From an uncultured virus (IMG/VR IMGVR_UViG_3300027708_000002) (taxonomy: Duplodnaviria > Heunggongvirae > Uroviricota > Caudoviricetes), in IMG/VR virus record IMGVR_UViG_3300027708_000002: a stretch of 64,000 nt of DNA; one strand, written 5' to 3'. A program made the translations under genes and the position numbers. Below, in pieces: positions 20 to 64,000 of this stretch (position 1 is its first letter; each line of letters starts with the position of its first letter). The notes under the pieces are model-generated. The model worked only from the letters and a program-made list of their open reading frames with translations. It was not told the DNA's origin and did not search any database.

Positions 20-973
20 TCAGTCGTCCCAATCGCCAACTATGTCGCTCAAATCAGACTTCTCTTCCACCACAGGTGCGGCTTTCTTCGTAACCTTAAT
101 CGGCTCGGCTACGTCTTCAATGTCCACGGGGGCGGCTGGTTTCGGCGCGACCTTGGCAACGACCTTCTCGTATGCAGGGGCGTCTTCAGTCCGCATCAAC
201 TCACCCATGGGCAGGGCAGCTTTGGGTGCAGGGATTACACCGTCCATCTGAGACACGTTCAATGTGATCGCCTTAATGGTGTCGGGGTGGTTTTGCAACT
301 TGACTGCAATCGCCAACTCGTCGTCTTCCAAGGGGCGCACAGGGTTGAACACCAGCTTAGGGGTTGCGCTGTCAATATCAAAACGCATCTCCGTCAGGAC
401 AGAAATCGCAGGGGTGTTATATGCCTTGAGGTGGCGACCATACGCTTGCAGGGGCATCTTCTTGCCGTCTGCGTCACCAAACACGGATGTGGATGGTAGG
501 GTAATTTGATATACCTCACCCCTGTTCAACTCACCATCGAGCGCCACAGCAATACGTTGCTGGAAGCGGCAAGCGCGGCCTTCTCCTTGACCGGAACCCT
601 TGATGTGCTGCTTGCAGTCTTTGCAGAACTTAGCTTGGCGTTGATCTTCGGGTACTGCTTTGTCAGGAGATTGCGTATCACTAGACCAGCATGTGGGTTT
701 CATCTTCTGACCCTTGACATATGTACCTGCAAAGAACATACGGGACACGGGGGCAGCGTTAATCAGAATTACCTTCATGGAACGCTCTTCGCTCACACGA
801 ACTTCCTTGCCGTTAACGAACTCGCGGAAAGCACCGCCTTCAATACTGATGCGTCGATTACCACCACCGCTACTGCTACCAGCAAGGGTGTTTGTCAGGT
901 TATCTTCAATGCTGCCCATCAATGCGAGGGCTGCGTTACTAGGCTTACCAAAAAGGGTCATATCGTTACTCAT
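20..973 (-). CDS. putative single-stranded DNA-binding protein
   Basis: 317 aa with an acidic/aromatic C-terminus (DIVGDWDD) and a CxxC...C cluster; lies in the replication module. Confidence 0.55.
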   Translation of the reverse strand: MSNDMTLFGKPSNAALALMGSIEDNLTNTLAGSSSGGGNRRISIEGGAFREFVNGKEVRVSEERSMKVILINAAPVSRMFFAGTYVKGQKMKPTCWSSDTQSPDKAVPEDQRQAKFCKDCKQHIKGSGQGEGRACRFQQRIAVALDGELNRGEVYQITLPSTSVFGDADGKKMPLQAYGRHLKAYNTPAISVLTEMRFDIDSATPKLVFNPVRPLEDDELAIAVKLQNHPDTIKAITLNVSQMDGVIPAPKAALPMGELMRTEDAPAYEKVVAKVAPKPAAPVDIEDVAEPIKVTKKAAPVVEEKSDLSDIVGDWDD

Positions 974-987
974 CTTCGTTTCTCCTG

Positions 988-1688: not shown

Positions 1689-1950
1689 CTTCTACACTGT
1701 TAAGCGCGATAGCCAGCCCATATGCCTGTTTAGCCTGTTGCATGTAGTTCTCAAGGGGTACGCCGTAAGCAGACGCTGCGTCCGCCAAAAGCCTAGACAG
1801 CGCGGTAAGAATTAACGGAGGGGTAACCCCACCATCGGCTGAAACTCTACGTACCGCCTGTTTTATGGCGGTGTCCAGATCCCCTAAAACTTTGGCAGAT
1901 TTAATCAACTCTTCTGCACGGCGCATTTTATCGTCGGTGTTATCTTCCAC
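1660..1950 (-). CDS. hypothetical protein
   Basis: GTG at 1950 preceded by GGAGAGAACGAA; promoter immediately upstream. Confidence 0.55.
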   Translation of the reverse strand: MEDNTDDKMRRAEELIKSAKVLGDLDTAIKQAVRRVSADGGVTPPLILTALSRLLADAASAYGVPLENYMQQAKQAYGLAIALNSVEDGGADDWYV

Positions 1951-1981
1951 TTCGTTCTCTCCGTTGGTTAGTGAGGTGTTT

Positions 1982-3541: not shown

Positions 3542-3613
3542 TTCGTTCTCCGGTGCAGACGGCTTAACGGAGCGAAGTGGTGTCCCACTCGCTCTCGCTG
3601 CTATCGAACTTCT

Positions 3614-11790: not shown

Positions 11791-12160
11791 GGAACCACTC
11801 CTTGATACGTTGCCATAGAGTAGGCTCGACCATGGTGATCTCCAACTCAGTCGGAAGCGTAGGTATTGGGTACACATTCTGTGCGGGGTGTACGTATGGG
11901 CTGGGCTGGGCCTTGATGCCAGTTCCTGCTCTCATGCGGCGCTTGGGTGGCGCACCGATGCCATCAGTAGGTTGCTTTGGCAGTTTGCCAATAGAGCCCA
12001 AACCTCTAGCCTTGTTAAGTTGATACCGTATGTTGTATACGGCTTGTGGGCGAACCCCCAGCTTTTCAACAATAGCTTTGTTGCTGTAACCCTTGTAGAC
12101 CATGGTGCGAATGCGCTGTGAGTCGCTAGGCGTAGTCTTCCGTTTTGTTTTCGTAGTCAT
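11783..12160 (-). CDS. HTH DNA-binding protein
   Basis: GYSNKAIVEKLGVRPQAVYNIR helix-turn-helix pattern. Confidence 0.65.
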   Translation of the reverse strand: MTTKTKRKTTPSDSQRIRTMVYKGYSNKAIVEKLGVRPQAVYNIRYQLNKARGLGSIGKLPKQPTDGIGAPPKRRMRAGTGIKAQPSPYVHPAQNVYPIPTLPTELEITMVEPTLWQRIKEWFRG

Positions 12161-12214
12161 CTTCGTTTCCTATAAGTTAAGTTAAACGGCACGTGAAGCG
12201 CACGTGCCAACGCA

Positions 12215-13609: not shown

Positions 13610-14551
13610 TTATATCTCCTTTGTTTCGTACATACCTAACAACGTGTTCATCTTGCGGTTGAACGCCGCACGGATCTCGCGCAATACATCTTGTGAAGTG
13701 ACCGGACGCTTACCACCAATCTCGTACACTACCAACGCCATCAGCGGTACACGCATCGGATGTGCCTCATCTGCCACGATAGCCCTTGCAAGCTCTTGTG
13801 GGAACACGCCATTCCTACCCCATGGGGAGTAATTAAACACACTATTGGGCATGTTCTCTCTGCTCCACTCTGTGATCATGTGTCCATACAAAGTCCGCGA
13901 TTCATACGATGTATCCAGCATAGAAGCTAACGCCCCTGCATGGTCATAGAACGCATTGATCATGGGCTTCCACTGCTTCTTACGTTCTCTGTCTATCTGC
14001 TTCACCGTAACCGTGAACTGCTCACCCTCACGTGTGAACGTGCCATCACCGTTTACCTTGAACCGCAGTCGCTTGCCATCATCCTCGGTCGCCGCACCTT
14101 TTGGGTATTCCCAACGATACGCAGTCTTAGGTAAGGGAAAGTCCTCATACCCTGTCGGTGTCTTAGCGGATACCCCGTGCTTACCCTGCTGGCTGCTCCT
14201 GAACCGCAGTCCTGTAGGCAGATACCACTGTAAGAACTTATACCGTGCGATAGGTACTGACCCTATTACGCCATTGCGTATGTAGATGTAGTCGCCATCA
14301 GCCTCACGCTTCCACATGATCGGTGCCATGTCTTGCTCATACTGCTTCTTCGCTTGTTTTTCCCCACTATGCCAACTCCACAGGCCATCGAGTAGGCAGT
14401 ATGTCTCAGCGTCCACCTTGAGAATGCGCTCCCACTTACGCTTGCGGCTACCGATAGGGCGAATGTTGTCCTCTGCCTTGTGGTGTTTACTTACGACAGG
14501 CTTGGTTATGTTGTACCAATTAACCACTTCATCAAATGTATTTAATATCAT
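13610..14551 (-). CDS. hypothetical protein
   Basis: 313 aa ORF; leader AAGGAACGAAG-ATG. Confidence 0.65.
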   Translation of the reverse strand: MILNTFDEVVNWYNITKPVVSKHHKAEDNIRPIGSRKRKWERILKVDAETYCLLDGLWSWHSGEKQAKKQYEQDMAPIMWKREADGDYIYIRNGVIGSVPIARYKFLQWYLPTGLRFRSSQQGKHGVSAKTPTGYEDFPLPKTAYRWEYPKGAATEDDGKRLRFKVNGDGTFTREGEQFTVTVKQIDRERKKQWKPMINAFYDHAGALASMLDTSYESRTLYGHMITEWSRENMPNSVFNYSPWGRNGVFPQELARAIVADEAHPMRVPLMALVVYEIGGKRPVTSQDVLREIRAAFNRKMNTLLGMYETKEI

Positions 14552-14587
14552 CTTCGTTCCTTTTAAGGTTTAGGTTTGGTTTGTTTT

Positions 14588-14607: not shown

Positions 14608-14805
14608 TTAAGCGCGTCTATTCCACAGGCGCACTGCTTCTTCCCGTGTACGCCCCATGCACTCGACAGGTTTGAGCACAGGCTTGCCCCCATCTTTGCA
14701 CCAGTGCAACACGGATACAGAGAACACACCCGCCGTCGAGTTGCGCTCACGTATCTCTACTTCATGCCCACCACAGAACGGGCAGGGTTTCATCTCGTTA
14801 CTCAT
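14608..14805 (-). CDS. Lar-family (restriction alleviation-like) Zn-finger protein
   Basis: KPCPFCGG...C...EAVRLWNRR. Confidence 0.65.
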   Translation of the reverse strand: MSNEMKPCPFCGGHEVEIRERNSTAGVFSVSVLHWCKDGGKPVLKPVECMGRTREEAVRLWNRRA

Positions 14806-14806
14806 C

Positions 14807-15985
14807 TCAGTCCTCCACATGTACATATTTACCAACATCAGGGCAAGCACTCTTGTTACCCACGATGCACCACAGCACGGGGCAAGCCCACGTACCCCAC
14901 GAATTACCTAAGTAGCCATCAGTCAGCACCACCACCGCTTGCGGCTTAATACCACCGTCTGCCATGTACTTGGGCACACACTCCACAGTCGTACCACCAC
15001 CGCCCTCGGGCTTGGTCGAGTCCACAATGTGTTCAATCTCCATACCGGTGTACCGCTCATCAGCACACACCTCGGTATCCCAGTACAACAGCCGCACGGT
15101 TTCAGGCTTAACCTGATCACAGATACCCTTGACCTCGCCAAGAAACTGTGCCAACTCACGCCCACCGATAGAGCCCGATGTGTCGATAGCAATTACAAGT
15201 TCACCCACCTGTTCACTCACACCCGATGGCATGTAATAGCCCGATGACACAAACCTACGGTTGGGCCGCCGCCATGTTGAGTAATCGTTACCTGTACATG
15301 TTGTGGAGATGAACTCCCGCAGTGCTTCACGCCAGTCGATCTTTGTCTGTAACAAGTCATCGAACAAACGATCACCACCTGAGCCAAGCTTGCCAGCCGC
15401 TAGTGCGCCTTGACGTACTGCTTCGTCAATGTCACGTGCTAACTGCTTACCTTCCTCGTCAGACAGTTCACTCGCGCCGTCCCAGTCGTGGTCGTCGATG
15501 CCAGTTCCATCGCCCCTGCCTCGACCGCCGCCCTCGTCCTGATCTTGCTTCAACAAGTTGTACACCTGTGCGCTGTCCATACCACGAAACTGTGGATCTA
15601 CCAGCCCGACCTCGGGCATGACGGCGAACCCGTCCTTGTTGTCGTCAGTCAGCTTGATGTTGATCACGTAGTCACATGCTTGGTTGGCAAGCCTTGCATC
15701 CTCATCGTACAGATGACGCCATGTAGTCAGGTGTCTGTACAACTTGTGATAGCACTCGTGCAGCACAAGGAACCGCAACTCTGCATCAGTCAGGGATTCA
15801 ATGAACTTACGACCATACAACTCGTCACGCCCATTAGTGCATGCGGTTGGTACTTTGTCGTCCACCGAACGTTTACCGATCATCAACACACCAGCAAGGG
15901 CGACATACTTGGGCGAACCCATGATGTCAACCACCGCTTTACTCAGCCGCTGTTCAGCGGTCAACTCTTTACCTATCATTAACAT
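14807..15985 (-). CDS. DUF2201-like metallopeptidase plus VWA domain protein
   Basis: TACTNG, LVLHECYH (HExxH), IDTSGS MIDAS, GGGT, LTDG. Confidence 0.85.
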   Translation of the reverse strand: MLMIGKELTAEQRLSKAVVDIMGSPKYVALAGVLMIGKRSVDDKVPTACTNGRDELYGRKFIESLTDAELRFLVLHECYHKLYRHLTTWRHLYDEDARLANQACDYVINIKLTDDNKDGFAVMPEVGLVDPQFRGMDSAQVYNLLKQDQDEGGGRGRGDGTGIDDHDWDGASELSDEEGKQLARDIDEAVRQGALAAGKLGSGGDRLFDDLLQTKIDWREALREFISTTCTGNDYSTWRRPNRRFVSSGYYMPSGVSEQVGELVIAIDTSGSIGGRELAQFLGEVKGICDQVKPETVRLLYWDTEVCADERYTGMEIEHIVDSTKPEGGGGTTVECVPKYMADGGIKPQAVVVLTDGYLGNSWGTWACPVLWCIVGNKSACPDVGKYVHVED

Positions 15986-15986
15986 T

Positions 15987-16157
15987 TCATTCTCCTGTTA
16001 TTTCTTCGACATCGTAGGCTTGGCACTCGCTTGAGTACGTCACCTTGCTTTGGTCAAATGATTCATACATCTTCATCTCTGCCTCATCTTGCGTTTCGGC
16101 TTCGACTTCGACCTCTTGGGTGTATGACACCACCACTGTGCCTCTCCATCGTTTCAT
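15987..16157 (-). CDS. small acidic protein (56 aa, not in ORF track)
   Basis: read by hand: MKRWRGTVVVSYTQEVEVEAETQDEAE...; AAAGGA RBS. Confidence 0.5.
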   Translation of the reverse strand: MKRWRGTVVVSYTQEVEVEAETQDEAEMKMYESFDQSKVTYSSECQAYDVEEITGE

Positions 16158-18234: not shown

Positions 18235-18250
18235 TTCAGTTTCCTTGTTT

Positions 18251-18751: not shown

Positions 18752-18994
18752 TTAGTCGTTCTCTGCACCGAGATAACACCCTCGGAAAAAGTGCTGTGCG
18801 CCCATTGCGCGGATCGTACCTGTGGCTATGCGTCTAGGCTTACGCCCAGCTTTCCACACACTACGTTCAAACCTCAAACCAGCCACACTATCTGAGCTTA
18901 TGGGTCTAGGTTCACGCCGCTTGGTGCTTGAGCTAAATACATGTTGCACGGTCTTGCGTTGACCTGCGCCCCACTGGTAATTCTTCGTTTTCAT
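18752..18994 (-). CDS. hypothetical protein
   Basis: leader AAGGAGAACGT-ATG; downstream of a promoter. Confidence 0.55.
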   Translation of the reverse strand: MKTKNYQWGAGQRKTVQHVFSSSTKRREPRPISSDSVAGLRFERSVWKAGRKPRRIATGTIRAMGAQHFFRGCYLGAEND

Positions 18995-19009
18995 ACGTTC
19001 TCCTTGTTT

Positions 19010-19086: not shown

Positions 19087-19115
19087 ACTATAACATAGTA
19101 TGCTACGTTTGTCAA
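19087..19115 (-). promoter_or_regulatory. early sigma70 promoter
   Basis: TTGACA-17 bp-TATAGT. Confidence 0.8.
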
Positions 19116-19689: not shown

Positions 19690-20212
19690 TATTATCAATG
19701 TTCTTGAATGTTCTTGAATGTTCTTTGTTTGGGGTTGTGCAAGTCCTTGATTCATATAGTAAAGTACGATAGTTCCGAAAGTTCGTTGTATTTTGGATAC
19801 ACCCTGTCTAGAAGTGTCCAGTTACCTGCGAACTTTACCTGAAACTAGCTAAACAGGTAATTGGACACCCTCAGACGCTGGGACTCTTTTTCACTAAAAA
19901 CGAACTTTAATACAAATGATAAGAATAGATAAGAATAGATAAAATATGATAGGTATAAAACTTAAGGGATTGCAAAGCTCCTGCACAATCTAATGCAAAA
20001 CTATAAAGTACGTGCGCACAAGAACTTTATGGAACTTCTTAGCTAGCGAAAAGAACTTTATAGGCCAAAAAACGAACTTTATCCAAACTATATTTTCGCA
20101 GCCATTTAAATAAAACGAACAGTACAAGCAGACTAAAAACGAACATTAGAACATTGTGTAGAACGAACAGTATGAGCAGACTAGAAACGAACAGTACGAA
20201 CAGTACGAACTC
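19690..20212. other. candidate replication origin (AT-rich, iterated GAAC motifs, central inverted repeat)
   Basis: (AATGTTCTT)3; stem 19814-19828/19854-19868; repeated GAACTTTA and CGAACAGTA. Confidence 0.5.
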
Positions 20213-20218
20213 GCCGCC

Positions 20219-20449
20219 AAGTCAGTCGTGCCTCCTTCCGCGCTCATCGCCGCTTTAGGAACTGGTATCAGTTGTTAGGGAATCCCTAACAAAGCTGGCG
20301 CTCAACGTGCTCGCCACTAAGTCAGTCGTGCTCATCGCTAAGTCAGTCGTGCCTCCTTCCGCGCTCATCGCTAAGTCAGTCGTGCCTCCTTCCGCGCTCA
20401 ACGCTGCTTCAGGAACTGGTATCAGTTGTTAGGGAGTCCCTAACAAAGT
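20219..20449. repeat. 77-bp direct repeats (20219-20295, 20373-20449) with partial internal copies; contain palindrome copies 7 (20274-20290) and 8 (20428-20444)
   Basis: AAGTCAGTCGTG at 20219, 20319, 20340 and 20373; 4 mismatches between the long copies. Confidence 0.85.
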
Positions 20450-20497
20450 TGTGGTGTGTGGTGGCGTGTATGTGGTGGGTGCAGAAAAGTACAGACG

Positions 20498-26511: not shown

Positions 26512-26709
26512 ATGGCTAAGTCCGTATTTGACGTACTTACATTGAAACATGAAGAGGATGTGGCCTCTTCAACCCAGTTTCTGGTAAGCGGGGGAGCTAA
26601 AGACTTCGCTGAATACCGGGAAATAGTAGGCAGGATTCGAGGTCTCCAGCTTGCTATCCAAACCACCAAAGACCTTTCGCGCTCTCAAATGGAAGAAAAT
26701 GATGACTGA
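26512..26709 (+). CDS. conserved small phage protein
   Basis: DFAEYREIVGRIRGL; AAGGAG RBS. Confidence 0.65.
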   Translation: MAKSVFDVLTLKHEEDVASSTQFLVSGGAKDFAEYREIVGRIRGLQLAIQTTKDLSRSQMEENDD

Positions 26710-27079
26710 TACAGTCCAAACCGCTACTACCGACGCCGAATTGGAGGCTATGCTCCCAAAACCAGTTGGATATAAGCTGCTAATTGCCCTGCCACAAGTG
26801 GAAGAAACGCTTGGTGATATGGGTATTCTCAAGCCACAGAAGACTATTCATGAGGAAATGCTCATGACCGTAGTCGGACTTGTACTTGATATGGGCGAAC
26901 AAGCCTACGCTGACAAAGACCGTTACCCTAATGGGCCATGGTGCAAAGTTGGTGACTATGTGGTATTTCGCGCTAACTCTGGCACTCGTGTCAAAGTAAA
27001 TGGCGTTGAATATCGTCTCATGAATGACGACTCAATTGATGCTGTCGTTGCCGACCCACGTGGCGTAACACGTGCATAA
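26702..27079 (+). CDS. groES: GroES-like co-chaperonin
   Basis: PVGYKLLI, GIL, KVGDYVVF..NSGT.V..NGVEYRLMNDDSI.AVV. Confidence 0.85.
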   Translation: MTDTVQTATTDAELEAMLPKPVGYKLLIALPQVEETLGDMGILKPQKTIHEEMLMTVVGLVLDMGEQAYADKDRYPNGPWCKVGDYVVFRANSGTRVKVNGVEYRLMNDDSIDAVVADPRGVTRA

Positions 27080-30708: not shown

Positions 30709-30752
30709 TTGATCTCGGGAGCCTTGGCTCCCTTTTCTAAAGGAGATTGATT

Positions 30753-31049
30753 ATGGCAATGCAAACTGATGTAAAAAGTGCGCACCTTAGCGCGGCTGGC
30801 TCTTACTATGTAGGTCGAACACGACTAAAGGGTATTGTTATATCCCCAAAAATAAGCACGGCGGTAACATTTGAAATCCGAGACGGTAGCGCCACAGCCG
30901 CCGTTCTCTACACGATGGACTTAGCTAGCAACAGTAATCCAAACACGTTTTATATCCTAGTCCCCGGTGAAGGTATTTTGGCTAATACAGGTTTGTATTT
31001 AACGACAAGTACGGGCACAGTAACCGGGATCACGGTGTTCTATGGCTAA
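30753..31049 (+). CDS. virion structural protein
   Basis: MAMQTDVK...PGEGIL...TVFYG. Confidence 0.6.
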   Translation: MAMQTDVKSAHLSAAGSYYVGRTRLKGIVISPKISTAVTFEIRDGSATAAVLYTMDLASNSNPNTFYILVPGEGILANTGLYLTTSTGTVTGITVFYG

Positions 31050-54884: not shown

Positions 54885-57800
54885 ATGGACTTGCAAAATG
54901 TGCTGACCGCACTGCGGAATGCGGATGCGGCGGGTGACACGCAAGCTGCCCAACAGTTAGCACGGATCGCCCAATCCATGCGATCAGCCCCTTCCGAAGA
55001 GTCAGACATTGAGGCACGTTTGCAACAGCTACGTGCCGAACGCGAGGAGTTGCTCAAGCCAAAACCCACAGTTGGCGGCAACATCAAAGAGGCGTTCAAA
55101 GGCGTAGTCCCCGGTGCAATTGGCTTGCTTGAAACTGCGGGAACTGGTATCGCAGCGTTGCTCCCCGACGACACAGAAAAGGCTGTGCGGGAACAAATCA
55201 AAGAGATTGCTGGCGTTGCCAAAAAACCATTTGAAGCGAGTGCGGGTTATGAAGATTCCGTCGGTCGTAAGTTAGGTGAAGGTTTAGGTTCAACCCTACC
55301 GTTCTTTGCCGCTGGCCCCCTCGGTATAGTTGGGCGTGTTGCCGCTAGTGGTCTTGGTGTTGCTGCTGGCGCTGGTGAAGCTCGTGAGGGTGCTGAAGCC
55401 AAGGGCGCAACTAAAGAAGAACGTTCTACCGCCACACTACTCGGCGCACCTACTGGTCTGCTGGACATGCTGGCACCCCAGATTAAACCGTTTAAGAGTC
55501 TGGTAGGCACCGCACTAGCACGTGGTGGCATAGAGGGCGCAACGGAAGCCGCACAGAAAATAGCCCAGAACTTGATCGCCAAGGGTGTGTATGACCCCGA
55601 GCAACCTATTGTGGCTGGCTCTGGGGAAGAGGGTGCGTACGGCGCTGGAGTTGGTGCACTAGCTAGCTTGATTGTTGACATGACCGTGGGCCGTAAGGCT
55701 CGCCGCGCATCATTGGGGCTGGACAAAGAAACCCCTGCACCGGGGGGCGAAAAACCTGCTGCTGGGCAACAACTGTTGGGATACACCCCGCCTACGCCTA
55801 TGGTTACCCCCGAGGGGGAAACACTCACCACCACCGAACAGCAAGAAGCGTATGCGGCGCGGAAAAAAGCAGATGCGCAACAACGTGTACAAGACATACA
55901 AACTTCTGACCCCCTTGCCAACTTGTCCGCTGACCAACGCGACCTTGCACGTCGTGGTAAAGAAGCCGCACTAGCCGAAGCATTCGGACAAAAGCAAGAG
56001 CCGGGGCAGCTTGGCTTGCCGGGAATTGAGCGTGAAGACGGTACTGTAGAGGTGCCCGGCCAAGGGCGCATATCCCCCAAAGCCGTAGAAGAAGTTAGGG
56101 CGGGGGAAGAAGTTGCGCCCAAGCAAGACACCCAAACCCGCGACATGATCGACGAGTTGGAAACCCAACAAATCGAAGAGATGCAGCAGGCCGATGCTGC
56201 AAAGCAAGACAAGGCTAAAGCGGATGAGGCACGCCTAAAGTTTGAGTCTGACCTTGCCGAATTGACTGGGCAGGTAGATAGGAAGCAGGAAAAAACAACT
56301 CAGGACACGCGCCTTGAGTTGTTACTGCCAATTGTTGAGTCAGACACTAAGAACATCCCTAAAGCATTTGTACAGAGTCTTAAGCGTGAGGGCATCACCA
56401 ACACCAACCTCACTGACCGTGAACGTGACCTTATCAACCGTGCCTACGACATTCGGCTGGCAGAGGCACCCGTGTTTGAAACCCTGCCGGTAATTAAACA
56501 GCCCGAAGGACAACTTAAAGCAATCGAGTCCCTTATTCCTGAAAAGAAGTCACAGCGTGTACCTGAACAGGTGGGTTTCCCGGGCATGGGTAAGCCGAAG
56601 GGTGCCGCACCCCAAGCGTTCTCTAAAGAAGAGCTTGCACTCCAAGAAGATCAAGATAAACAATTCGATACGGTGCTTACACCCGAGGTGTTGGCTAGCG
56701 CTGGGCTACCAAAGCAGTCGGGGTTCTATAAGCAGTTACTGAACATGGACATGGCTGATGCCGCTCAGCAGCCCATAGTTGCAAATATTTTTGGCCGTAT
56801 ACGTACTAACGCTAGCCTATCCGCATCGACTAAGGACGCAGTTGAAAACCTAGCTATGCGAGCATTTGGCGGACTTGCTAAGCAAGGCGATATGTTTGTA
56901 CCGGCTACACCCACTACACCCACTAACACCACTAAGGAAGGTAAGAAAGATGCGACCCCAGCAAAGCCAGCCGCCAAAGAACCTGTCGCACGAGGACGTG
57001 GTACGGACACAGGAAATGTCGCTGGAGGAACTAGAACTAGCGATGCAGGTAGTAAAGTTAGCGGAGGGGAAGACAAGCGTGCTGGAGTTTCTGCCGATAC
57101 CGAACAGCCTAAAGCACCTAAGTCCGCTGGATTGGGAAGTAGTGGGAAACCTGCTAATGTCTCTGGAGTACGAGCAAGCGTGGAGCCGAGTGCACTGAAG
57201 AAGGCCGAGCCGAAGGCCGAAGCTAAGCCCGAGGCTAAACCGGAAGTCAAGGCAGCGCCGAAGGTCGAGAAGGCCAAGCCAGAAACCAAGGCCGAAGCCA
57301 AGCCGGAAGTTAAGGCCGAAGCTAAGCCTGAAGCTAAGTCGACAGCCAAACCCGAGAAGGCCCAATCTAACGCAAGTTTCGGTGCGTACGGTCAAGTGAT
57401 GGAGGCTGAAAGCCGGTCGGATGCGCTTGACTATTTGGCGTATGACATGTACATAGCCATGTTTGAGAAGTTCAAACTGCTTACCCGCATTGACACGCTC
57501 AACGACATTAATGCACAGCTTCGCAACGGCCAAATACCCGAGGTTGCATTCGGGCGTGAAGGTACAACTTCTATCGTGCCGTTGAGCGGTGGTAAGTATG
57601 CCAAGGCGTTTTACGAATCCCTGACGACGGCAGACAAGAAAGCACTTGCAGGAAAAATGGCCGAGCACTTTGGCGCATCCGAAAATGCGGTGCGTCGTGG
57701 CACTGCGCAATTCAGCGCACAACAAGAGTTGGCCCGTGCTACTTCTGAGCAATTCAACGGCGATGTTCTAGAGCTTGCAAAAGATGCGGCGACCCTAAGT

Positions 57801-60800
57801 ATGCCTTTGCACCCTGCCATCCGTAAGGCGTTGGAGGCCGGTGATCTGCGCGGCGCTCTGACTATGCTGGGTTCGCAAAACCTTGGCCGTGCATCTACGG
57901 CTGCTAAAAAGTTGTCCGACGCAATCGGCAAGACTAAAGTCAAACTGGTTGCAGGTTTGAAGAACGATGCGGGTAACCCCGTTGCAGGTCTGTACGATCC
58001 CAAGACAGACACTATTACGCTAGACGCGGGTGCGGGTTTAAATAATCACGTGCTATTACATGAAGTTGTACACGCCGCCACCTCACATGTGCTAGATAAC
58101 AAGTCACACCCAGTGACTAAACAACTTACAGAGCTTTACAACAATGTCAAAGACTCACTAGACACGGCGTACGGTGCGCAGTCTCTGGACGAGTTCGTTG
58201 CCGAAGCTTTCAGTAATCCAGAGTTCCAACAGAAGTTGGCAGGGATTAACCCCAAGGGTGAACCCATTACTGCGTTGCGTCGGTTCATGCACGCTATTAG
58301 GAATTTCATGCGTACCCTCATGGGTACTGGAACAAAGAGTATGGATACGGCGCTCGACGCTTCCGACTCGTTGACCAACGCTATCCTGTCCCCTGCACCT
58401 GAGTACCGCGATGCGGGGTCGCTATTTGCGGCATCCTTATTGGGTAAGAGTTCCGCAGTTTTCAAGTCTTTGGACGACCGAATCCTCTCGCTACCAGCGA
58501 TGGACAACAAGATTGTTAGTGGTATCTACGAGTTGTTCCGTGAAGGAGTACCTTCAGCCACTAAAAAAATCGTGCTTCGTAGCTTGCCGCTAAACGCGCT
58601 AACAGAGGTCGCCAAAAAAGATATCCCCATGGCCCCTAAACTATCCGAGTTGGAAAAGCTTTGGAGTGGCGCGGTCGATAAGCGCAAGCAAGCTGCGCAA
58701 GCTACCATGAAAAACATCCAGAACTGGATTAAAGGCAACCCCGAGAAAGAAGCTACGTTAAACGACGTTATTGCTAACAGCACGTTGGAGCAGGTTGACC
58801 CATCTAAGCCCCGCGCTGACTACAAAGGCCAGCAGTCCGAAAGCGGCGCAGACAAGCAAAAAGTGTGGGACGACCTGCAACCTAAGTGGAACAAGCTTGG
58901 CCCCGAGGGGCAGAGTGCTTACAAGCAGATGCGTGACACGTACGCCAAGACTTATGGCGAGTTAGTTGACTTGTTGCTTGCTAGGGTTGACTCTTCCGTA
59001 AAAGACAAAGAAGACGCCAAGAAACTTAAAGCTGAGATTTACCAGCGCCTTATGGCTAAAGGCAAGATCGAACCGTACTTCCCACTATCACGTTCCGGCG
59101 ACTACCGCCTCTCATACGACCTTAAAGGGGAGCACTACGTCGAGCACTATGAGAATTCGGTTGATCGTGAACGGGCAATAAAGGCGCTGGAAGCCGACGG
59201 CACGGCTAAGAACGTGCAGAGATTTAAGAGTGGTGATTCCAAGCGGACGTATAAAGATGCGCCGTCAACATCGTTTGTAAATTCTGTGTTGCGTACGCTA
59301 GACGCTAACAAAGTTGATCCCGAAGTAACCGACGAGATCATGCGCACTTTCCTAAACATGATGCCGGAGTCGTCGTTTGCACAGGCGTTCCGTAAACGTA
59401 AGAACACGCCCGGTTTTAACTTTGATGCAACCGCCACGTTCTATACCCGGTCTATGGGCATGGCCCACCAGATGGCTAATCTTGAATACGGTAACAAGAT
59501 GTACCAACTGCGCGATGAGATTGAGGAACACGTCAAAACAAAGAATACTACTGAACCCGCCCGTGCTATGGCCGACGAACTGAACGGTCACATCAAGACA
59601 TTGGTAAGTCCTGAAATTGCACCTTGGTCAAAGGCTCTGACCTCCACAGCTTTTGGTTGGACATTGGGTTTTAACGTATCGTCTGCGGTCGTCAACTTGT
59701 CGCAAGTCCCACTGGTGATGGTGCCTTACCTCGGCGGTAAGTACGGCTACTCCGAAACGACTAAAGCCATAGGTTCAGCAACCCGTTTGTTTTTCGGCAG
59801 CGGCCTCAAACGCAACGCCGAGATGACTGTACCTACCGCTGACGGCAAGTCCAAGATCGAACTGAAAGCCAGCTTCTCTTTGGACAATTACGACTTTGAT
59901 GCCAAGGGGGTTCCAGAAGATGTTAAGCAACTAAAAGAATTATCTGAAGTTGCAGCGGACTACGGCTTACTTAGCCGGTCATTGACGCACGACATTCTAG
60001 ACATGGACGAGAAGTCCACTGTACTTAACCGTGTAAACGCATGGTCTGGGTTTATCTTCCACCATGGCGAGCGTATGAATCGTCAGGTTTCGCTGATTGC
60101 TTCTTACAAGCTTGAGCTTGAGCGCATGGCTAAAGCCGGTGAAGATATCAACAGCGCCTCACGCACCGAAGCGGCCAAACGCGCCGTGGAGATTACTGAG
60201 TTGATGAACGGTGGCGCATCCGCAGGTAGTGCCCCGCTGCTGGCAAAGAACTCGCTGGGCAAGGTCTTGTTCATGTACAAGCGGTACGGTGTTTCCATGT
60301 ATTACATGATGTTCAAGACGGCCCGGGAAGCTATGAAGTCTGAGGACAAGCAAGTACGCGACGCTGCTATGCGGCAAATCGTGGGTATTTATGCCTCCGC
60401 AGGAATGATGGCTGGGGTGCAGGGTCTGCCAATGTTTGGCATCTTGGCTGCTGTATATAACTTGTTCAAGGGTGATGACGAGGACGATGCCGAGACCGCT
60501 GCACGCAAGTATCTTGGTGAGGGTCTGTTCAACGGCGCAGTCAACTACCTGACCGGCAGTGCCATCTCCAACCGTATCGGCTTGTCTGACCTGCTGATTA
60601 GCAGCACGGGATATAAAGAGCAAGACAACGCAATGTTGGCCTTTATGCAGCTTATGGGTGGCCCGGTTTACGGTGTTGCTGATCGGATACAGCAAGGCGT
60701 TAAGATGATTAACGAGGGTGACACCGAACGTGGTTTGGAGCGCATGCTTCCCGCAGGTATCGCCAACGGTATGAAAGGTATCCGGTTTGCCACAGAAGGT

Positions 60801-61199
60801 GCCAACACACTGCGTGGAGACCCCATTACCGGTGAGATGTCAACATCTAATGCAGCGGCGCAATTCTTTGGGTTTGCCCCCGCCGAATACACCCGTCAGC
60901 TAGAGATCAACGCTTCCCTAAAGAACATCGACCGACGCGCCGCTACACAACGCACCAAGGCGTTGCGCGACTACTACATTGCTGCACGGGTCGGGGATAC
61001 TGATGGGATGGCTGATGCCATGGAGGACATGATGAAGTTCAACCGTGCCCACCCCGGATATGCGATTACAGCTAAGACGGTGCAGAATTCTATGGCTCAG
61101 CACATGAGAACAACTCAGTCTATGTACCACGGCGTTACCTTCAGCAAGGGTATGCGCAACGAGCTATTGCAGAACGCTTCGGAGTTTGACGAGGATTAA
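54885..61199 (+). CDS. very large internal virion protein with zincin-like HExxH domain
   Basis: 2104 aa; GLYDP..DTI...LLHEVVHA...DEFVAEAFSNPEFQ. Confidence 0.75.
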   Translation: MDLQNVLTALRNADAAGDTQAAQQLARIAQSMRSAPSEESDIEARLQQLRAEREELLKPKPTVGGNIKEAFKGVVPGAIGLLETAGTGIAALLPDDTEKAVREQIKEIAGVAKKPFEASAGYEDSVGRKLGEGLGSTLPFFAAGPLGIVGRVAASGLGVAAGAGEAREGAEAKGATKEERSTATLLGAPTGLLDMLAPQIKPFKSLVGTALARGGIEGATEAAQKIAQNLIAKGVYDPEQPIVAGSGEEGAYGAGVGALASLIVDMTVGRKARRASLGLDKETPAPGGEKPAAGQQLLGYTPPTPMVTPEGETLTTTEQQEAYAARKKADAQQRVQDIQTSDPLANLSADQRDLARRGKEAALAEAFGQKQEPGQLGLPGIEREDGTVEVPGQGRISPKAVEEVRAGEEVAPKQDTQTRDMIDELETQQIEEMQQADAAKQDKAKADEARLKFESDLAELTGQVDRKQEKTTQDTRLELLLPIVESDTKNIPKAFVQSLKREGITNTNLTDRERDLINRAYDIRLAEAPVFETLPVIKQPEGQLKAIESLIPEKKSQRVPEQVGFPGMGKPKGAAPQAFSKEELALQEDQDKQFDTVLTPEVLASAGLPKQSGFYKQLLNMDMADAAQQPIVANIFGRIRTNASLSASTKDAVENLAMRAFGGLAKQGDMFVPATPTTPTNTTKEGKKDATPAKPAAKEPVARGRGTDTGNVAGGTRTSDAGSKVSGGEDKRAGVSADTEQPKAPKSAGLGSSGKPANVSGVRASVEPSALKKAEPKAEAKPEAKPEVKAAPKVEKAKPETKAEAKPEVKAEAKPEAKSTAKPEKAQSNASFGAYGQVMEAESRSDALDYLAYDMYIAMFEKFKLLTRIDTLNDINAQLRNGQIPEVAFGREGTTSIVPLSGGKYAKAFYESLTTADKKALAGKMAEHFGASENAVRRGTAQFSAQQELARATSEQFNGDVLELAKDAATLSMPLHPAIRKALEAGDLRGALTMLGSQNLGRASTAAKKLSDAIGKTKVKLVAGLKNDAGNPVAGLYDPKTDTITLDAGAGLNNHVLLHEVVHAATSHVLDNKSHPVTKQLTELYNNVKDSLDTAYGAQSLDEFVAEAFSNPEFQQKLAGINPKGEPITALRRFMHAIRNFMRTLMGTGTKSMDTALDASDSLTNAILSPAPEYRDAGSLFAASLLGKSSAVFKSLDDRILSLPAMDNKIVSGIYELFREGVPSATKKIVLRSLPLNALTEVAKKDIPMAPKLSELEKLWSGAVDKRKQAAQATMKNIQNWIKGNPEKEATLNDVIANSTLEQVDPSKPRADYKGQQSESGADKQKVWDDLQPKWNKLGPEGQSAYKQMRDTYAKTYGELVDLLLARVDSSVKDKEDAKKLKAEIYQRLMAKGKIEPYFPLSRSGDYRLSYDLKGEHYVEHYENSVDRERAIKALEADGTAKNVQRFKSGDSKRTYKDAPSTSFVNSVLRTLDANKVDPEVTDEIMRTFLNMMPESSFAQAFRKRKNTPGFNFDATATFYTRSMGMAHQMANLEYGNKMYQLRDEIEEHVKTKNTTEPARAMADELNGHIKTLVSPEIAPWSKALTSTAFGWTLGFNVSSAVVNLSQVPLVMVPYLGGKYGYSETTKAIGSATRLFFGSGLKRNAEMTVPTADGKSKIELKASFSLDNYDFDAKGVPEDVKQLKELSEVAADYGLLSRSLTHDILDMDEKSTVLNRVNAWSGFIFHHGERMNRQVSLIASYKLELERMAKAGEDINSASRTEAAKRAVEITELMNGGASAGSAPLLAKNSLGKVLFMYKRYGVSMYYMMFKTAREAMKSEDKQVRDAAMRQIVGIYASAGMMAGVQGLPMFGILAAVYNLFKGDDEDDAETAARKYLGEGLFNGAVNYLTGSAISNRIGLSDLLISSTGYKEQDNAMLAFMQLMGGPVYGVADRIQQGVKMINEGDTERGLERMLPAGIANGMKGIRFATEGANTLRGDPITGEMSTSNAAAQFFGFAPAEYTRQLEINASLKNIDRRAATQRTKALRDYYIAARVGDTDGMADAMEDMMKFNRAHPGYAITAKTVQNSMAQHMRTTQSMYHGVTFSKGMRNELLQNASEFDED

Positions 61200-61228
61200 A
61201 AAAACCCCTGCTTTTTACGGCAGGGGTT
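61198..61228 (-). terminator. terminator between convergent arms (T tract on the minus strand)
   Basis: AACCCCTGC-CGTAAAAA-GCAGGGGTT-TTTTT. Confidence 0.8.
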
Positions 61229-61267
61229 AAATCCTTTTCCAAGGAGAACGAAGACAGGGAGACTGTC
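61198..61267 (-). ncRNA. candidate ~70-nt anti-RBS small RNA
   Basis: own promoter and terminator; 5' hairpin with UCUCC loop; UCUUCGUUCUCCUUG complementary to many phage leaders. Confidence 0.55.
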
Positions 61268-61273
61268 AAGCGG

Positions 61274-61302
61274 ATAGTATCACAGCCGCCGCCAAATGCG
61301 AA
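61274..61302 (-). promoter_or_regulatory. promoter of the candidate sRNA
   Basis: TTCGCA-17 bp-TACTAT with extended -10 (TGaTACTAT). Confidence 0.55.
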
Positions 61303-61543
61303 CCCCCCAGCGCCCTTTATCAATACCGGGCCTGTAGTGCATAACCCACCCCCACTCACTTGTTAGCTCGTGTACTTGCCGCACAAGTTCCAGCGTGTTT
61401 ATGCAGGGGATGAACACCGAAGAGTCCACCGGAAACTCATCCCAACGGACAACAATCCGCACCCCATCGGGTGCGATGTCGTTAATCCTAATCCTGTTTT
61501 TCGAACAGCGCGGCGGTTGTCGCCATAATTTGCTCAGTTTCAT
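61280..61543 (-). CDS. small hypothetical protein (possibly DNA-binding)
   Basis: W..F.V.SSVFIPC...GVRIWR; follows the primase. Confidence 0.55.
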   Translation of the reverse strand: MKLSKLWRQPPRCSKNRIRINDIAPDGVRIVVRWDEFPVDSSVFIPCINTLELVRQVHELTSEWGWVMHYRPGIDKGRWGVRIWRRL

Positions 61544-64000
61544 CGTTCAAAAACCCTGTGCAGTCCAGTATTAAAACGTCGGTCGGGGGCAGGTTTACAC
61601 GGGTGCCTTTGCCAAGCCTAGCTTTGGTCTTAATCGCCTTTGTACCCCCCGTCTTAAGACCGTCCACAAACCCTGCATAGTTGATCTGCTGCTTGCCGCA
61701 CCACTCTTTCAACGGCTTAACCAGCAAGTACAGCTTCTTAACGTCGTATTCATACCGCGCTACGAGTTGGCTTCGCGGTACGCCGTCTGGTTGCACGAGG
61801 TGATCCAGCATGCCAGCGGTAGTTCTTGAGTCATCAGTTGACTTAATACGGAGCATGTTGTTGTAGTTTTCTGCCATGTAGTCGGTCAGTTGGGACTCAA
61901 CACTCACGTTCATCTCGCTAACCATAGCTTTGGCATCGGCCATAACTTTGATAATCCACTGCACAATCGGCGCAATTTTCCAATCAATCAGTCCCGCCTT
62001 TTTAGCTACCATCAACGCTGCAATATCACGTGAGGCCAAAGCAGACCAATACCTGTTTTCAGCGGAAAGCTGCGATTCTGTATCCAGTCTCTTCTGTACC
62101 GCCTTGGTAAGTTCGTTAACTGCATCCAAATTATTCAGGATGTACTGTACGAAAATCACACCAGCATGCCCGTAGTTGTCTTTTATAGCGGCGCTAAATA
62201 CGTCGGTCTCAGCCTTGGTTGCAAACTTAACGGGCTCAACACGGCATTCAAGTACCCGCTGGGCTTCGGCTTGTGGCAGTGCTTTGTACAGTGCGATACG
62301 CTCTAGCATTGAGGTGTTACCCGTTGTGCCAAACAAAGTCTTCCAAGGCTTGCCTCGAACGCGCTCTACGTTACCCTTTGGCCCCATACGATTACGCTGC
62401 AAGCCACTAGGAATTTGGTACGCCCAGTCCGACAAGTCTTTTGGGCTAGTGTTGGTCATCTCGTCCATGTAGCAGACGATGTTCTTATACACCTCGGCAC
62501 GATTCATTTTTGAATTGAACGTGTCTCGCTCCTGCATGACCAACAGATCGGGATCGCCCCAAACGGATGCACCTGCGTACATCGCCGTGGTCTTGCCCAA
62601 ACCGGAACCCTTACTCCATGCATGGAAAGCGGCAGCGTTGATAGGCTGAAACTCCATTAAGACAGAACCCAACGACAATCCAAACATGAACTGGTGCAAC
62701 TCCATATTCGGCTGGTTGTAAAACTGCATGGTTTCTTTCCACTTCTCCAGCGTACCCTTAGTCTTAAAGATCGGGAACAGCCCTACGGTGGCAGAAGAGG
62801 GTGAACTTATGTCCACTCGGTCTTTAAAAATTTCCATGTTGCCAACAACAAACGACTCGTGGGATTTGTCTTTCCATCCAAACTGTCGGCATGCTTCGTC
62901 CGCCTCGGAGGTGAACTGCAACTCATTAACCCATTTCATTGTGTACTCCATAAGTTCTTGTACGTTAAGAACAGCCACGCCTTGTGAGGCAAGTAGCTTG
63001 CGAAATTCGTCTTTTGTACCCACTGCGGTGAGGGGCACCATAAATTCTCGAACACCATCACGAGGGAGGTGCAACCGCATCACCACAGACTCCCCAATCT
63101 CAGGGTCAACTACGCGCCGGATGACATAAAGATCGTTGAAGTAAATCAGTTGGTCTTTGTCTTCCCCTTCCTCGTCTTTACCGTGCTTGAACACGCCACC
63201 GTTTTTACCCCTAAAAAACGGGTGTGGGTACTTGGGTATCACGTATGCACGGGGGGTAGCCGCCGGTACGCCCAAGGGTTTTTCAAAAACTAAGTTGTCT
63301 GACTCTTCAGCTTCCTGAACTTCTCTTCCGAGGGCTATAGGAGAACTGATCTTGCCCCAGTGCGGACACTCACTACAAACACCCCCACGGTACTCGTCAA
63401 ACCTGCTGCACAAGTACGGGCCTTTGATCAGGTCTACCTTCTGCTCGGTGCTCTCAAATGTGTACTCAGGATGCTTCGATGAGATCTTATGGATTGCTTT
63501 ACCGCCATCAACACAAAATTTAGCTATCGACAACCCAGCCCTCCACAAGGGCTCTGATATGTTTGTTTGGTTGTTGATTACTTCCTTAAGTTGTTCACAC
63601 CCAGTACCCGCAACGGTCTTGACCAAAATGGTCTTGAACTTGCTGATGTAGCTACCCGACAGGGCTTGCATCATTGCATCCTGCTGTCTAGGTACGTACT
63701 TCCTAGGTGGGGTCATCACCGTTGCGTCGTCCCCTATGATGCTACAGAACGTGTCAAAGTCTACGGGTATACCGGGCTCCCCAACCAATACGACAGGTGC
63801 CGGAGGGTTAGACTTGTGGTTACTTGTATTGGGTACTCGTAGCACACGGGCCGCATCCGCTGGCACAGCAGGGTCTATCCGTAATCCTTTGGACTTGCAC
63901 AGCCGCTTAAATTGTTCGGCAACATGCACCCAAGTTTCCCTAGCTACAGGGGTGGTTAGCGGCCAATACACGTGTATCCCACGACCGGAATTTATAAGCG
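61488..64000 (-). CDS. primase-helicase (AEP/RepB-like N-terminus plus DUF927/SF3-like ATPase); 5' end outside the window
   Basis: frame open to the window edge giving NSGRGIHVYW; DAARVLRVP; SGLGKTT; YMDE. Confidence 0.85.
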   Translation of the reverse strand, partial: LINSGRGIHVYWPLTTPVARETWVHVAEQFKRLCKSKGLRIDPAVPADAARVLRVPNTSNHKSNPPAPVVLVGEPGIPVDFDTFCSIIGDDATVMTPPRKYVPRQQDAMMQALSGSYISKFKTILVKTVAGTGCEQLKEVINNQTNISEPLWRAGLSIAKFCVDGGKAIHKISSKHPEYTFESTEQKVDLIKGPYLCSRFDEYRGGVCSECPHWGKISSPIALGREVQEAEESDNLVFEKPLGVPAATPRAYVIPKYPHPFFRGKNGGVFKHGKDEEGEDKDQLIYFNDLYVIRRVVDPEIGESVVMRLHLPRDGVREFMVPLTAVGTKDEFRKLLASQGVAVLNVQELMEYTMKWVNELQFTSEADEACRQFGWKDKSHESFVVGNMEIFKDRVDISSPSSATVGLFPIFKTKGTLEKWKETMQFYNQPNMELHQFMFGLSLGSVLMEFQPINAAAFHAWSKGSGLGKTTAMYAGASVWGDPDLLVMQERDTFNSKMNRAEVYKNIVCYMDEMTNTSPKDLSDWAYQIPSGLQRNRMGPKGNVERVRGKPWKTLFGTTGNTSMLERIALYKALPQAEAQRVLECRVEPVKFATKAETDVFSAAIKDNYGHAGVIFVQYILNNLDAVNELTKAVQKRLDTESQLSAENRYWSALASRDIAALMVAKKAGLIDWKIAPIVQWIIKVMADAKAMVSEMNVSVESQLTDYMAENYNNMLRIKSTDDSRTTAGMLDHLVQPDGVPRSQLVARYEYDVKKLYLLVKPLKEWCGKQQINYAGFVDGLKTGGTKAIKTKARLGKGTRVNLPPTDVLILDCTGFLNDETEQIMATTAALFEKQD

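What the first reader, a model, noticed from the sequence alone, without database searches (positions are those of the whole stretch)
61198..61302. Candidate phage sRNA antisense to a shared ribosome-binding motif of ~8 early/replication genes
Seen: a minus-strand promoter (TTCGCA-17-TACTAT, extended -10) predicts +1 near 61267. The RNA would read GACAG-UCUCC-CUGUC-UUCGUUCUCCUUGGAAAAGG..., ending in an intrinsic terminator at 61198, with no ORF. Its 5' hairpin displays an anti-SD loop (UCUCC). The adjacent stretch UCUUCGUUCUCCUUG is complementary to the leaders of: the helicase (GGAGAACGAA-UUG, 3542-3551, 10 nt perfect); the 1950 gene (GAGAACGAAG, 10 nt); the 18994 gene (CAAGGAGAACG, 11 nt); the 14551 gene (GAACGAAGA, 9 nt); the 12160 HTH gene (AACGAAGA, 8 nt); the 18750 gene (GAGAACGA, 8 nt); the SSB-like gene (AGGAGAAACGAAGA, one bulge); and the VWA gene (AGGAGAAUGAA, one G:U). 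The structural-arm leaders I read lack the AACGAA spacer. Inference: one trans-acting RNA silences an early/replication regulon at translation (early shut-off, or protein-free immunity; no CI gene is evident). This recalls P1 c4 and P4 CI RNAs but uses a different, multi-target anti-SD design.
Basis: partly seen in the sequence, partly recalled or inferred. Interest (0 to 1): 0.9.

Follow-up and report, generated by a model that had tools for sequence, protein, structure and literature searches.

The report
Phage small RNA blocking early-gene translation
A group of uncultured lake and sea phages carries a conserved ~70-base RNA whose sequence mirrors, and changes together with, the ribosome-binding sites of several of the phage's own early and replication genes, so it most likely switches those genes off by base pairing, although no transcript or repression has yet been shown.

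Summary
Observation confirmed; interpretation largely supported by comparative evidence, untested experimentally. The unit (extended -10, 5' hairpin, CU-rich seed, terminator; 61282-61198, minus strand) follows the primase and an 87-aa ORF. The same layout recurs in relatives (terminator in 288 of 343 loci; TGnTAnnnT in 48 of 63 clades, 3.8 expected). The seed differs between lineages, and leader spacers change with it: own RNA pairs better than foreign RNA with the leaders of the 135-aa gene, the SSB-like gene and the helicase (z -7.0, -3.4, -6.4); five control genes are flat. On independent tree pairs this holds for the 135-aa gene (27 of 33) and SSB-like gene (10 of 12), not the helicase (12 of 26). 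Corrections: the working seed is the linker, not the 5' loop; polymerase, primase and exonuclease are not targets; the 18750 target is doubtful; nine early palindromes argue against 'protein-free immunity'. Best reading: a trans-acting translational repressor giving delayed early shut-off, an RNA counterpart of T4 RegB. No Rfam family is met. No RNA data cover it. This scan noted similar anti-leader RNAs in other phages.

The parts
61274..61282 (-). Extended -10 promoter element TGA-TACTAT (TG supplied by the stop codon of the 87-aa ORF)
   Evidence: TGnTAnnnT in 48 of 63 clades vs 3.8 expected, displaced from the stop codon in 6 clades
61297..61302 (-). Weak -35-like hexamer TTCGCA inside the coding end of the 87-aa ORF; variable in relatives, probably dispensable
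61198..61267 (-). Predicted 70-nt small RNA, +1 inferred
   Evidence: only strong hit of model R1 in the window
61253..61267 (-). 5' hairpin GACAG/CUGUC; stem conserved, loop variable
   Evidence: 94.4% of cells paired, 2 of 5 pairs with two-sided change
61240..61254 (-). Target-pairing region (RNA nt 14-28); nt 16-22 UUCGUUC predicted open (toehold on the SD-to-start spacer), followed by the anti-SD UCCUU
61232..61245 (-). Second hairpin that partly masks the anti-SD; lineage-restricted
   Evidence: masking in 8 of 55 clades
61198..61228 (-). Intrinsic terminator; overlaps the stop of the convergent 54885-61199 gene
   Evidence: 4 of 8 pairs with two-sided change
61280..61543 (-). 87-aa ORF of unknown function directly upstream; used as the marker for relatives
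   Evidence: no PHROG or Pfam family; DUF7303 lead only; model pLDDT 86, no clear fold match
61488..63998 (-). DUF927 primase/helicase, 5' end outside the window; not a target
973..986 (-).
   Evidence: co-fold -11.1 kcal; covaries
1950..1962 (-). Target leader of the 96-aa gene; in relatives this leader belongs directly to the 135-aa gene (1269-1676), the most consistent target
   Evidence: co-fold -10.7 kcal
3542..3551 (-). Target leader of the helicase (TTG start)
   Evidence: co-fold -9.3 kcal; not significant on independent pairs
12160..12167 (-). Probable target leader of the 125-aa HTH-like gene, just after terminator 12209-12187
   Evidence: (2 of 4 family members)
14551..14559 (-). 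Target leader of the 313-aa gene
   Evidence: 7 of 13 family members
15986..15996 (-). Target leader of the DUF2201/VWA-like gene in this lineage
   Evidence: co-fold -9.7 kcal; family-wide weak, 3 of 15
18235..18246 (-).
   Evidence: family mean z -1.78, 6 of 14; co-fold -6.9 kcal
18996..19006 (-). Target leader of the 80-aa gene, first gene after promoter 19115-19087
   Evidence: 11 nt exact; co-fold -13.3 kcal
18756..18763 (-). Doubtful target (18750 gene)
   Evidence: 8 nt exact but co-fold -3.9 kcal; family 0 of 10, scored partly at another start

Best explanation
A phage-encoded, trans-acting base-pairing small RNA that represses translation of a subset of the phage's own early and replication mRNAs. 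Shown by comparison: a conserved promoter box, hairpin, seed and terminator, and a seed that coevolves with a private SD-plus-spacer tag in the target leaders. Inferred: host sigma-70 RNA polymerase makes a ~70-nt RNA from the extended -10 (read-through from the primase operon ends at the same terminator). The open linker nucleates on the spacer between SD and start codon, and pairing extends over GGAG, giving 8-13 bp that exclude the 30S subunit. The spacer tag separates targets from late mRNAs that have only a generic SD. Inferred, weaker (about two in three, given the mechanism): the RNA builds up with time and genome copy number and ends the early pulse during lytic growth, freeing ribosomes for structural proteins, as T4 does with the RegB nuclease.
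For: Architecture. Lineage-specific seed/leader pairs by eye: TTCGTTCTCC/GGAGAACGAA, CATGTTCTCC/GGAGAACATG (L040), TCAGTTCTCC/GGAGAACTGA (L091), GCATCATTTCC/GGAGATGATGC (L105), ATGTCGTTTCTCC/GGAGAAACGACAT (G015), GGTCTCCTACT/AGTAGGAGACC (G018). Own versus foreign RNA, one member per clade at 80/70/65% identity: 135-aa gene z -7.0/-5.3/-4.5 (n 57/37/20), helicase -6.4/-4.9/-4.6 (n 47/30/17), SSB-like -3.4/-2.8/-3.7 (n 28/22/14); HTH, primase, 87-aa ORF, exonuclease and polymerase all mean |z|<1. Independent pairs on a primase tree: 27 of 33 (p=0.0002) and 10 of 12 (p=0.019), five controls not significant. Early leaders pair better than late in 15 of 15 genomes with the RNA, p<0.05 in 9. Of the five most early-enriched leader 7-mers per genome, 23 of 75 are exact reverse complements of the own RNA, against about 0.12 for foreign RNAs. 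Targets lie behind different predicted promoters and a terminator, which requires action in trans.
Against: No transcript seen: the one RNA run gave 2 contigs on the 8-kb stretch, neither on the element. The first sister-pair test was weak (135-aa gene 15 of 27, helicase 11 of 22, SSB-like 8 of 13) and became clear only after starts were re-chosen by a generic SD rule and pairs taken from a tree; the helicase stayed at 12 of 26. The G:U test of which strand pairs was inconclusive. The exonuclease control was positive in the register test (p=0.011). Several lineages (L094, L216, L228/229, L233, L309) show no own-RNA advantage, and 6 of 15 genomes had no top 7-mer in the RNA. G009 has a shared early leader with no antisense copy, so shared leaders can arise without an RNA. 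The strongest single co-fold in the window is a late leader. duplexfold ignores intramolecular structure.
Confidence: 0.72

Rival explanations
1. Same RNA and same pairing, but its main role is dormancy or superinfection exclusion: it keeps replication genes silent in a carrier or plasmid-like state together with a repressor on the palindromes, like P4 CI or P1 c4. (This shares the mechanism of the best explanation; the figure is the share of total probability for this purpose.)
For: The promoter looks host-type and has no palindrome near it. Palindrome arrays vary between genomes as immunity operators would. The HTH gene matches Cox/excisionase families.
Against: No integrase, partition or CI family among the 70 ORFs scanned against PHROGs or the 30 against Pfam (CI HTH only at E 0.012). 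The one-pattern scan of 185,579 prokaryote genomes gave only a 15-residue match. Primase and polymerase are not targets.
Confidence: 0.2
2. Cis action: the element is the 3' end of the long replication-operon mRNA and folds back on leaders of the same transcript; no free small RNA is needed.
For: The best-supported targets (135-aa gene, SSB-like gene, helicase) are probably co-transcribed with it; the terminator also ends that operon. Earlier scan notes proposed this for other phages (e1-5782497, unchecked).
Against: A -10 box keeps its distance to the RNA even when moved away from the stop codon (6 clades). Targets 18994, 18234 and 14551 lie upstream of the terminator at 12209-12187, and their families also favour the own RNA. 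One cis copy can mask only one leader per molecule.
Confidence: 0.1
3. The leader tag is read by a protein (RegB- or RegA-like, or a DNA-binding protein), and the inverted copy is another site or a plus-strand decoy; covariation reflects a shared protein specificity.
For: GGAGAACGAAG agrees with the T4 RegB consensus GGAGRAYARAA at 5 of the 7 positions after GGAG (my comparison; consensus from PMC3014915). The G:U strand test did not separate the strands. Shared leaders exist without an antisense copy in G009.
Against: Promoter box and U-tract are on the strand that gives the complement; 0 of 63 clades have a mirror U-tract. Hairpins fold better on that strand than composition predicts (-0.5 vs +1.35+-0.23 kcal). 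The tag changes often between lineages, easy for an RNA and hard for a protein.
Confidence: 0.1
4. A generic anti-SD RNA aimed mainly at host mRNAs (host take-over), like the growth-inhibiting CU-rich RNAs of Burkholderia.
For: Weak similarity to RF02278 (31.7 bits); CUCC is exposed in most clades (mean unpaired 0.82).
Against: Would not explain covariation with the phage's own spacers. Host unknown, so host targets could not be tested.
Confidence: 0.05
5. The opposite strand carries a real ribosome-binding site for a small antisense ORF, or the match is chance.
For: 30 of 59 clades have a start codon 3-11 nt after the SD-like motif on the opposite strand.
Against: Those frames are 1-55 codons, unrelated to each other, and the window has none. 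The start-codon complement is expected if the RNA covers the target start codon.
Confidence: 0.03

Closest known systems
T4 RegB endoribonuclease (PMC3014915, passages read)
   Same: Early mRNAs are marked by GGAG plus a 3' spacer consensus (GG*AGRAYARAA) and are inactivated at the ribosome-binding site, which is thought to free the translation apparatus for later genes.
   Different: RegB is a protein nuclease helped by S1 with a fixed consensus.
Betaproteobacteria 'toxic' double-hairpin sRNAs, Rfam RF02278 (ncS03/05/27/62; PMC5688073, passages)
   Same: Short terminator-ended RNAs with CU-rich unpaired stretches predicted to cover ribosome-binding sites of many mRNAs.
   Different: Chromosomal, host-metabolic targets, 3-5 homologues per genome. 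Here single-copy, phage-encoded, with a private spacer tag; score 31.7 against a cut-off of 50.
c4 antisense RNA of P1/P7 and CI RNA of P4 (PMC12197685; PMC4825925; passages)
   Same: Phage RNA that controls the phage's own genes by short complementary sites; c4 blocks translation near a ribosome-binding site.
   Different: They act on one operon (ant; P4 replication operon by premature termination; CI is processed from the target transcript) in temperate elements. Here the targets are many dispersed leaders and no lysogeny genes were found.
SviR of the phage satellite PLE (bioRxiv 10.1101/2022.04.08.487710, passages)
   Same: Mobile-element sRNA with a seed for several of its own element's operons near the RBS; Hfq/ProQ-independent.
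   Different: Satellite-encoded, with a second seed against the helper phage; no shared coevolving leader tag was described in the passages read.
Start-Associated Sequences (SAS/ESAS) of Cluster K mycobacteriophages (PMC3203893, passages)
   Same: A shared SD-containing leader motif limited to non-structural genes, often with upstream inverted repeats; four K1 phages have one inverted copy not at a gene start; function unknown, RNA or protein reader suggested.
   Different: Different sequence and phage group; no RNA was shown there, and I did not test those genomes.

Membership tests
Rfam RF02278 Betaproteobacteria toxic sRNA | Covariance-model score at or above gathering cut-off (50 bits) | tested here: not met
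   31.7 bits; no gathering hit in the window or in 14 related loci
Rfam RF02278 Betaproteobacteria toxic sRNA | CU-rich unpaired stretch complementary to ribosome-binding sites | tested here: met
   (predicted structure only)
Rfam RF02278 Betaproteobacteria toxic sRNA | Chromosomal, several homologues per Burkholderia genome | tested here: not met
   single copy in a phage genome
c4 / P4 CI antisense RNAs | Match to a curated Rfam model | tested here: not met
   no such family among 12 matches up to E 10; none at gathering
c4 / P4 CI antisense RNAs | Controls an antirepressor or immunity operon of a temperate element | tested here: inconclusive
   no antirepressor, integrase or CI family among the scanned ORFs; most early ORFs have no family
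Trans-encoded base-pairing sRNA (general class) | Own promoter and intrinsic terminator, no ORF | tested here: met
   (sequence signals only)
Trans-encoded base-pairing sRNA (general class) | Short seed complementary to several unlinked mRNAs, with compensatory change | tested here: met
   (robust for two gene families, partial for the helicase)
Trans-encoded base-pairing sRNA (general class) | Discrete transcript detected | tested here: inconclusive
   no coverage in the one RNA run, contigs only
Trans-encoded base-pairing sRNA (general class) | Repression of targets; Hfq or ProQ dependence | not testable with these tools
   needs experiments; host unknown
RegB-type system | A RegB-like nuclease in the genome | tested here: inconclusive
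   no RegB family named; the 87-aa model has no clear fold match

The most novel reading that the evidence does not exclude
These phages run their early-to-late switch with a reprogrammable RNA address code: a private tag between the SD and the start codon marks a regulon, and one guide-like RNA reads it, tag and seed drifting together so that each lineage has its own code (which could also decide exclusion between co-infecting relatives). The adjacent 87-aa protein may be its chaperone or effector. The same logic would explain the unexplained Start-Associated Sequences of other phages, whose single inverted copy would be the seed.
Probability: 0.3. Interest if true: 0.9.

Novelty: new variant of a known kind. 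Interest (0 to 1): 0.76.

Why it matters
The phage sRNAs in the papers I read act on host genes, on one antisense partner, or in temperate or satellite circuits. This is a family in widespread aquatic phages that appears to control the phage's own early regulon through a coevolving tag, the job T4 gives to a protein nuclease. Natural seed/leader pairs from different lineages are ready-made compensatory mutants, so the claim can be tested in a laboratory strain without culturing the phage. It also offers a testable answer to what shared early-gene leader motifs (SAS) are for, and gives natural orthogonal RNA/RBS pairs.

Tried and rejected
RNA evidence: one lake metatranscriptome with a small word share gave 2 contigs on 56000-64000, neither on the element; uninformative. 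Rfam: nothing at gathering; weak hits are terminator plus CU-rich stretch. Cultured relatives: the 87-aa ORF has no match in the phage collection. Pseudomonas phage Rollin and Rhizobium phage RHph_TM27A share primase and the 135-aa gene, but Rollin has no gap at the arm junction and TM27A has a terminator without a homologous ORF; I saw no such seed there. Prophage copies: none credible (one pattern only). G:U strand test inconclusive. Self-masking of the anti-SD as a general design rejected (8 of 55). Fold of the 87-aa protein: no Foldseek hit at E<=0.001 (best 0.6; KH, R3H and uS8 rows) and best VIA Z 5.0; no function assigned. One search used a mis-registered structure and is void; one search replaces it. 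A second RNA for the G009 leader motif was not found. Literature: searches showed no description of this family. The viral structured-RNA catalogue PMC10690425 could hold it anonymously: 3 of its 6 text files were searched without a hit, files 1, 2 and 4 were not searched and three more are unreadable. Paywalled papers and bioRxiv supplements were not visible.

Full report
Setting. The window is nearly a whole two-armed phage genome: a minus-strand early/replication arm (about 21400 to 1, continuing from the window end to 61280) and a plus-strand structural arm (21861-61199). The capsid protein is 63-71% identical to those of HTVC023P, DSL-LC04 and Pag-Yong1, but those records did not match the primase, the 135-aa protein or the 87-aa ORF. 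No host or assembly is held. The element lies where the arms converge, after the DUF927 primase and the 87-aa ORF.

Observation. Promoter boxes, hairpins, terminator and leader matches are as stated. Nucleotides 16-22 of the RNA are predicted open, and the anti-SD is partly held in a weak second hairpin. The motif is in 7 of 45 called early leaders and 0 of 46 late leaders (motif defined after the fact, own simple gene caller). Co-fold gains are -9 to -13 kcal for 18994, 973, 1950, 15985 and 3541, -8.0 for 14551, -5.2 for 12160 and -3.9 for 18750. Fourteen of 15 late leaders tested gave -1.1 to -7.2; 30756 gave -14.2.

Conservation. The 87-aa ORF gave 344 loci. Of 343 with the ORF, 288 had a terminator call and 23 were cut short. 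A stricter call gave 286, of which 273 had a body of 14 nt or more and entered the tests. Some lack the element altogether (L184-186, L198, L269-274, L277, mostly 36-39% GC) or have only a terminator (L220, L222, L226). Among 63 clades, 48 have TGnTAnnnT (3.8 expected) and 10 more begin TGATA; in 6 the box has moved away from the stop codon and stays ahead of the RNA. In 36 near relatives the 5' hairpin and terminator keep 94.7% of cells paired with 28 two-sided changes (0 of 500 shuffles; related sequences inflate this). The 5' loop is variable, the linker is not.

Covariation, the main test. Seeds differ between lineages and the spacers of orthologous leaders follow. Each RNA was paired in silico with each leader, row and column means removed, one member per clade. 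Own pairs were better for the 135-aa gene, helicase and SSB-like gene at all three clade thresholds, and not for five control genes from the same loci (numbers under Best explanation). Because kin share seeds I also used pair contrasts. The first attempt, with nearest neighbours and uncorrected starts, was weak (15 of 27, 11 of 22, 8 of 13). Many 135-aa starts were visibly misplaced. With starts re-chosen by one generic SD rule for all genes and independent pairs on a primase tree of 69 of 77 clades (those with the 135-aa start and a long primase), own pairing won in 27 of 33 (135-aa), 10 of 12 (SSB-like) and 12 of 26 (helicase); controls gave 18 of 32, 12 of 26, 15 of 30, 6 of 25 and 10 of 18 (ties dropped). 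A register test agreed for the 135-aa gene (2.84 vs 1.86 contiguous pairs, n 38) and helicase (2.47 vs 1.74, n 30), was flat for the HTH gene, and was positive for the exonuclease control (p 0.011).

Whole genomes. I fetched 15 of the 23 records with handles. With the window, 15 have the RNA and G013 does not. Early leaders favoured the own RNA more than late leaders in 15 of 15, p<0.05 in 9 (five of these genomes belong to one clade). Recurring target families: 135-aa gene (9 of 16 members at z<-1.5), SSB-like (7 of 12), 14551 family (7 of 13), 18234 family (6 of 14), helicase (6 of 15), and two families absent from the window (4 of 4, 3 of 5). Polymerase (0 of 14), exonuclease (0 of 15) and capsid (0 of 15) are not targets. 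G013 shows only SD variants among its enriched leader words. G009 has a second shared leader without an antisense copy, a caution that leaders can be shared by cassette duplication.

Strand and mode. The promoter box and U-tract put the RNA on the early strand, where it is the complement of the leaders; no clade has a mirror U-tract (0 of 63). The G:U test leaned the same way in energy but not in substitution counts, so it is inconclusive. No conserved opposite-strand ORF exists. Predicted promoters at 19115 and 18344 and a terminator at 12209-12187 place some targets on other transcripts, which favours action in trans. No transcript was seen.

Mechanism. Shown: architecture and coevolving complementarity over SD, spacer and often the start codon. 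Inferred from the known behaviour of RBS-pairing sRNAs: 30S exclusion. Inferred, weaker: a weak host-type promoter at the end of the early arm gives delayed, dose-dependent feedback that ends the early pulse. Dormancy or exclusion is the main alternative purpose; no integrase or CI family was found and no prophage copy, but nine palindromes and similar arrays in 15 of 16 genomes, G013 included, point to a separate protein regulator. The 87-aa protein is kept where the RNA is lost and has no clear fold match, so a partnership is only a possibility.

Comparison. It works like CU-rich RBS-pairing sRNAs (RF02278, PMC5688073), c4 (PMC12197685) and SviR (10.1101/2022.04.08.487710), and has the purpose described for T4 RegB (PMC3014915). 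It is a member of no Rfam family tested. The leader tag plus upstream inverted repeats plus one inverted copy parallels SAS/ESAS (PMC3203893), a lead I took from an earlier scan note. Papers seen: PMC12197685 parts 1-2 of 6 and passages; passages only of PMC5688073, PMC3203893, PMC3014915, PMC4825925, PMC10690425 and the SviR preprint; HTVC023P papers as a search listing. Searches showed no description of this family; unseen supplements of PMC10690425 may list it without a function. Earlier scan notes describe similar anti-leader RNAs in other phages; two marine cases might be this family, but look-ups by place and by sequence found nothing. They are unchecked and not counted as support.

Verdict. 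A real, conserved, very probably regulatory RNA; new variant of a known kind; interest 0.76.

Noticed in passing
window 14588, 16173, 17315, 18251, 19010, 19638, 20274, 20428, 21476 (17 bp each): Nine copies of the palindrome GTTAGGGA(A/T/G)TCCCTAAC, none expected by chance, mostly just upstream of early leaders. Arrays of lineage-specific palindromes (GTTAGTG, GTTATAC, GTTATAA, GTAGTGA, GGGTAAC types) occur in 15 of 16 genomes: candidate operator system with an unknown reader.
   Followed up: partly
window 19115-19087 and 18344-18316 (minus): Twin near-consensus sigma-70 promoters with similar upstream sequence, each followed by a hairpin with a GAATTCG loop, then the palindrome and a target leader: a repeated expression cassette.
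   Followed up: no
window 30736-30756 (plus): A late leader matches RNA nt 21-36 at 15 of 16 positions, the strongest co-fold in the window; 3 of 14 family members score below -1.5. Chance from a T-run plus SD, or a real late target.
   Followed up: partly
window 1660-1950 (minus): A 96-aa ORF without family sits between the conserved leader and the 135-aa gene and has taken over that leader; it was not matched in the other loci.
   Followed up: partly
window 19700-20450: Non-coding stretch with direct repeats (about 30 bp, 20250-20400) and many GTTC(G/T) runs: possible origin or packaging region.
   Followed up: no
L043, L060, L070, L111, L114, L247, L303, just after the stop of the small ORF: Short tandem repeats (such as GTATGGAGTT or TTACGGAACG units) inserted between the stop codon and the promoter box.
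   Followed up: no
G009 (L360-L363), early arm: Seven early leaders share AACCATG and several share AGAGGAGC, with no antisense copy found in the record.
   Followed up: partly
L401 (Rhizobium phage RHph_TM27A), early-arm leaders: Several leaders contain GGTAAC next to the SD and an upstream TTACC able to fold over it; the gene annotated 'putative integrase' matches the window's primase.
   Followed up: no
L184-L186, L198, L269-L274, L277: AT-rich relatives keep the small ORF but lack promoter, seed and terminator; natural RNA-less controls.
   Followed up: partly
window 26651-27079 (plus) and 14608-14850 (minus): Phage-encoded GroES-like co-chaperonin and a Lar-like restriction alleviation protein.
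   Followed up: no
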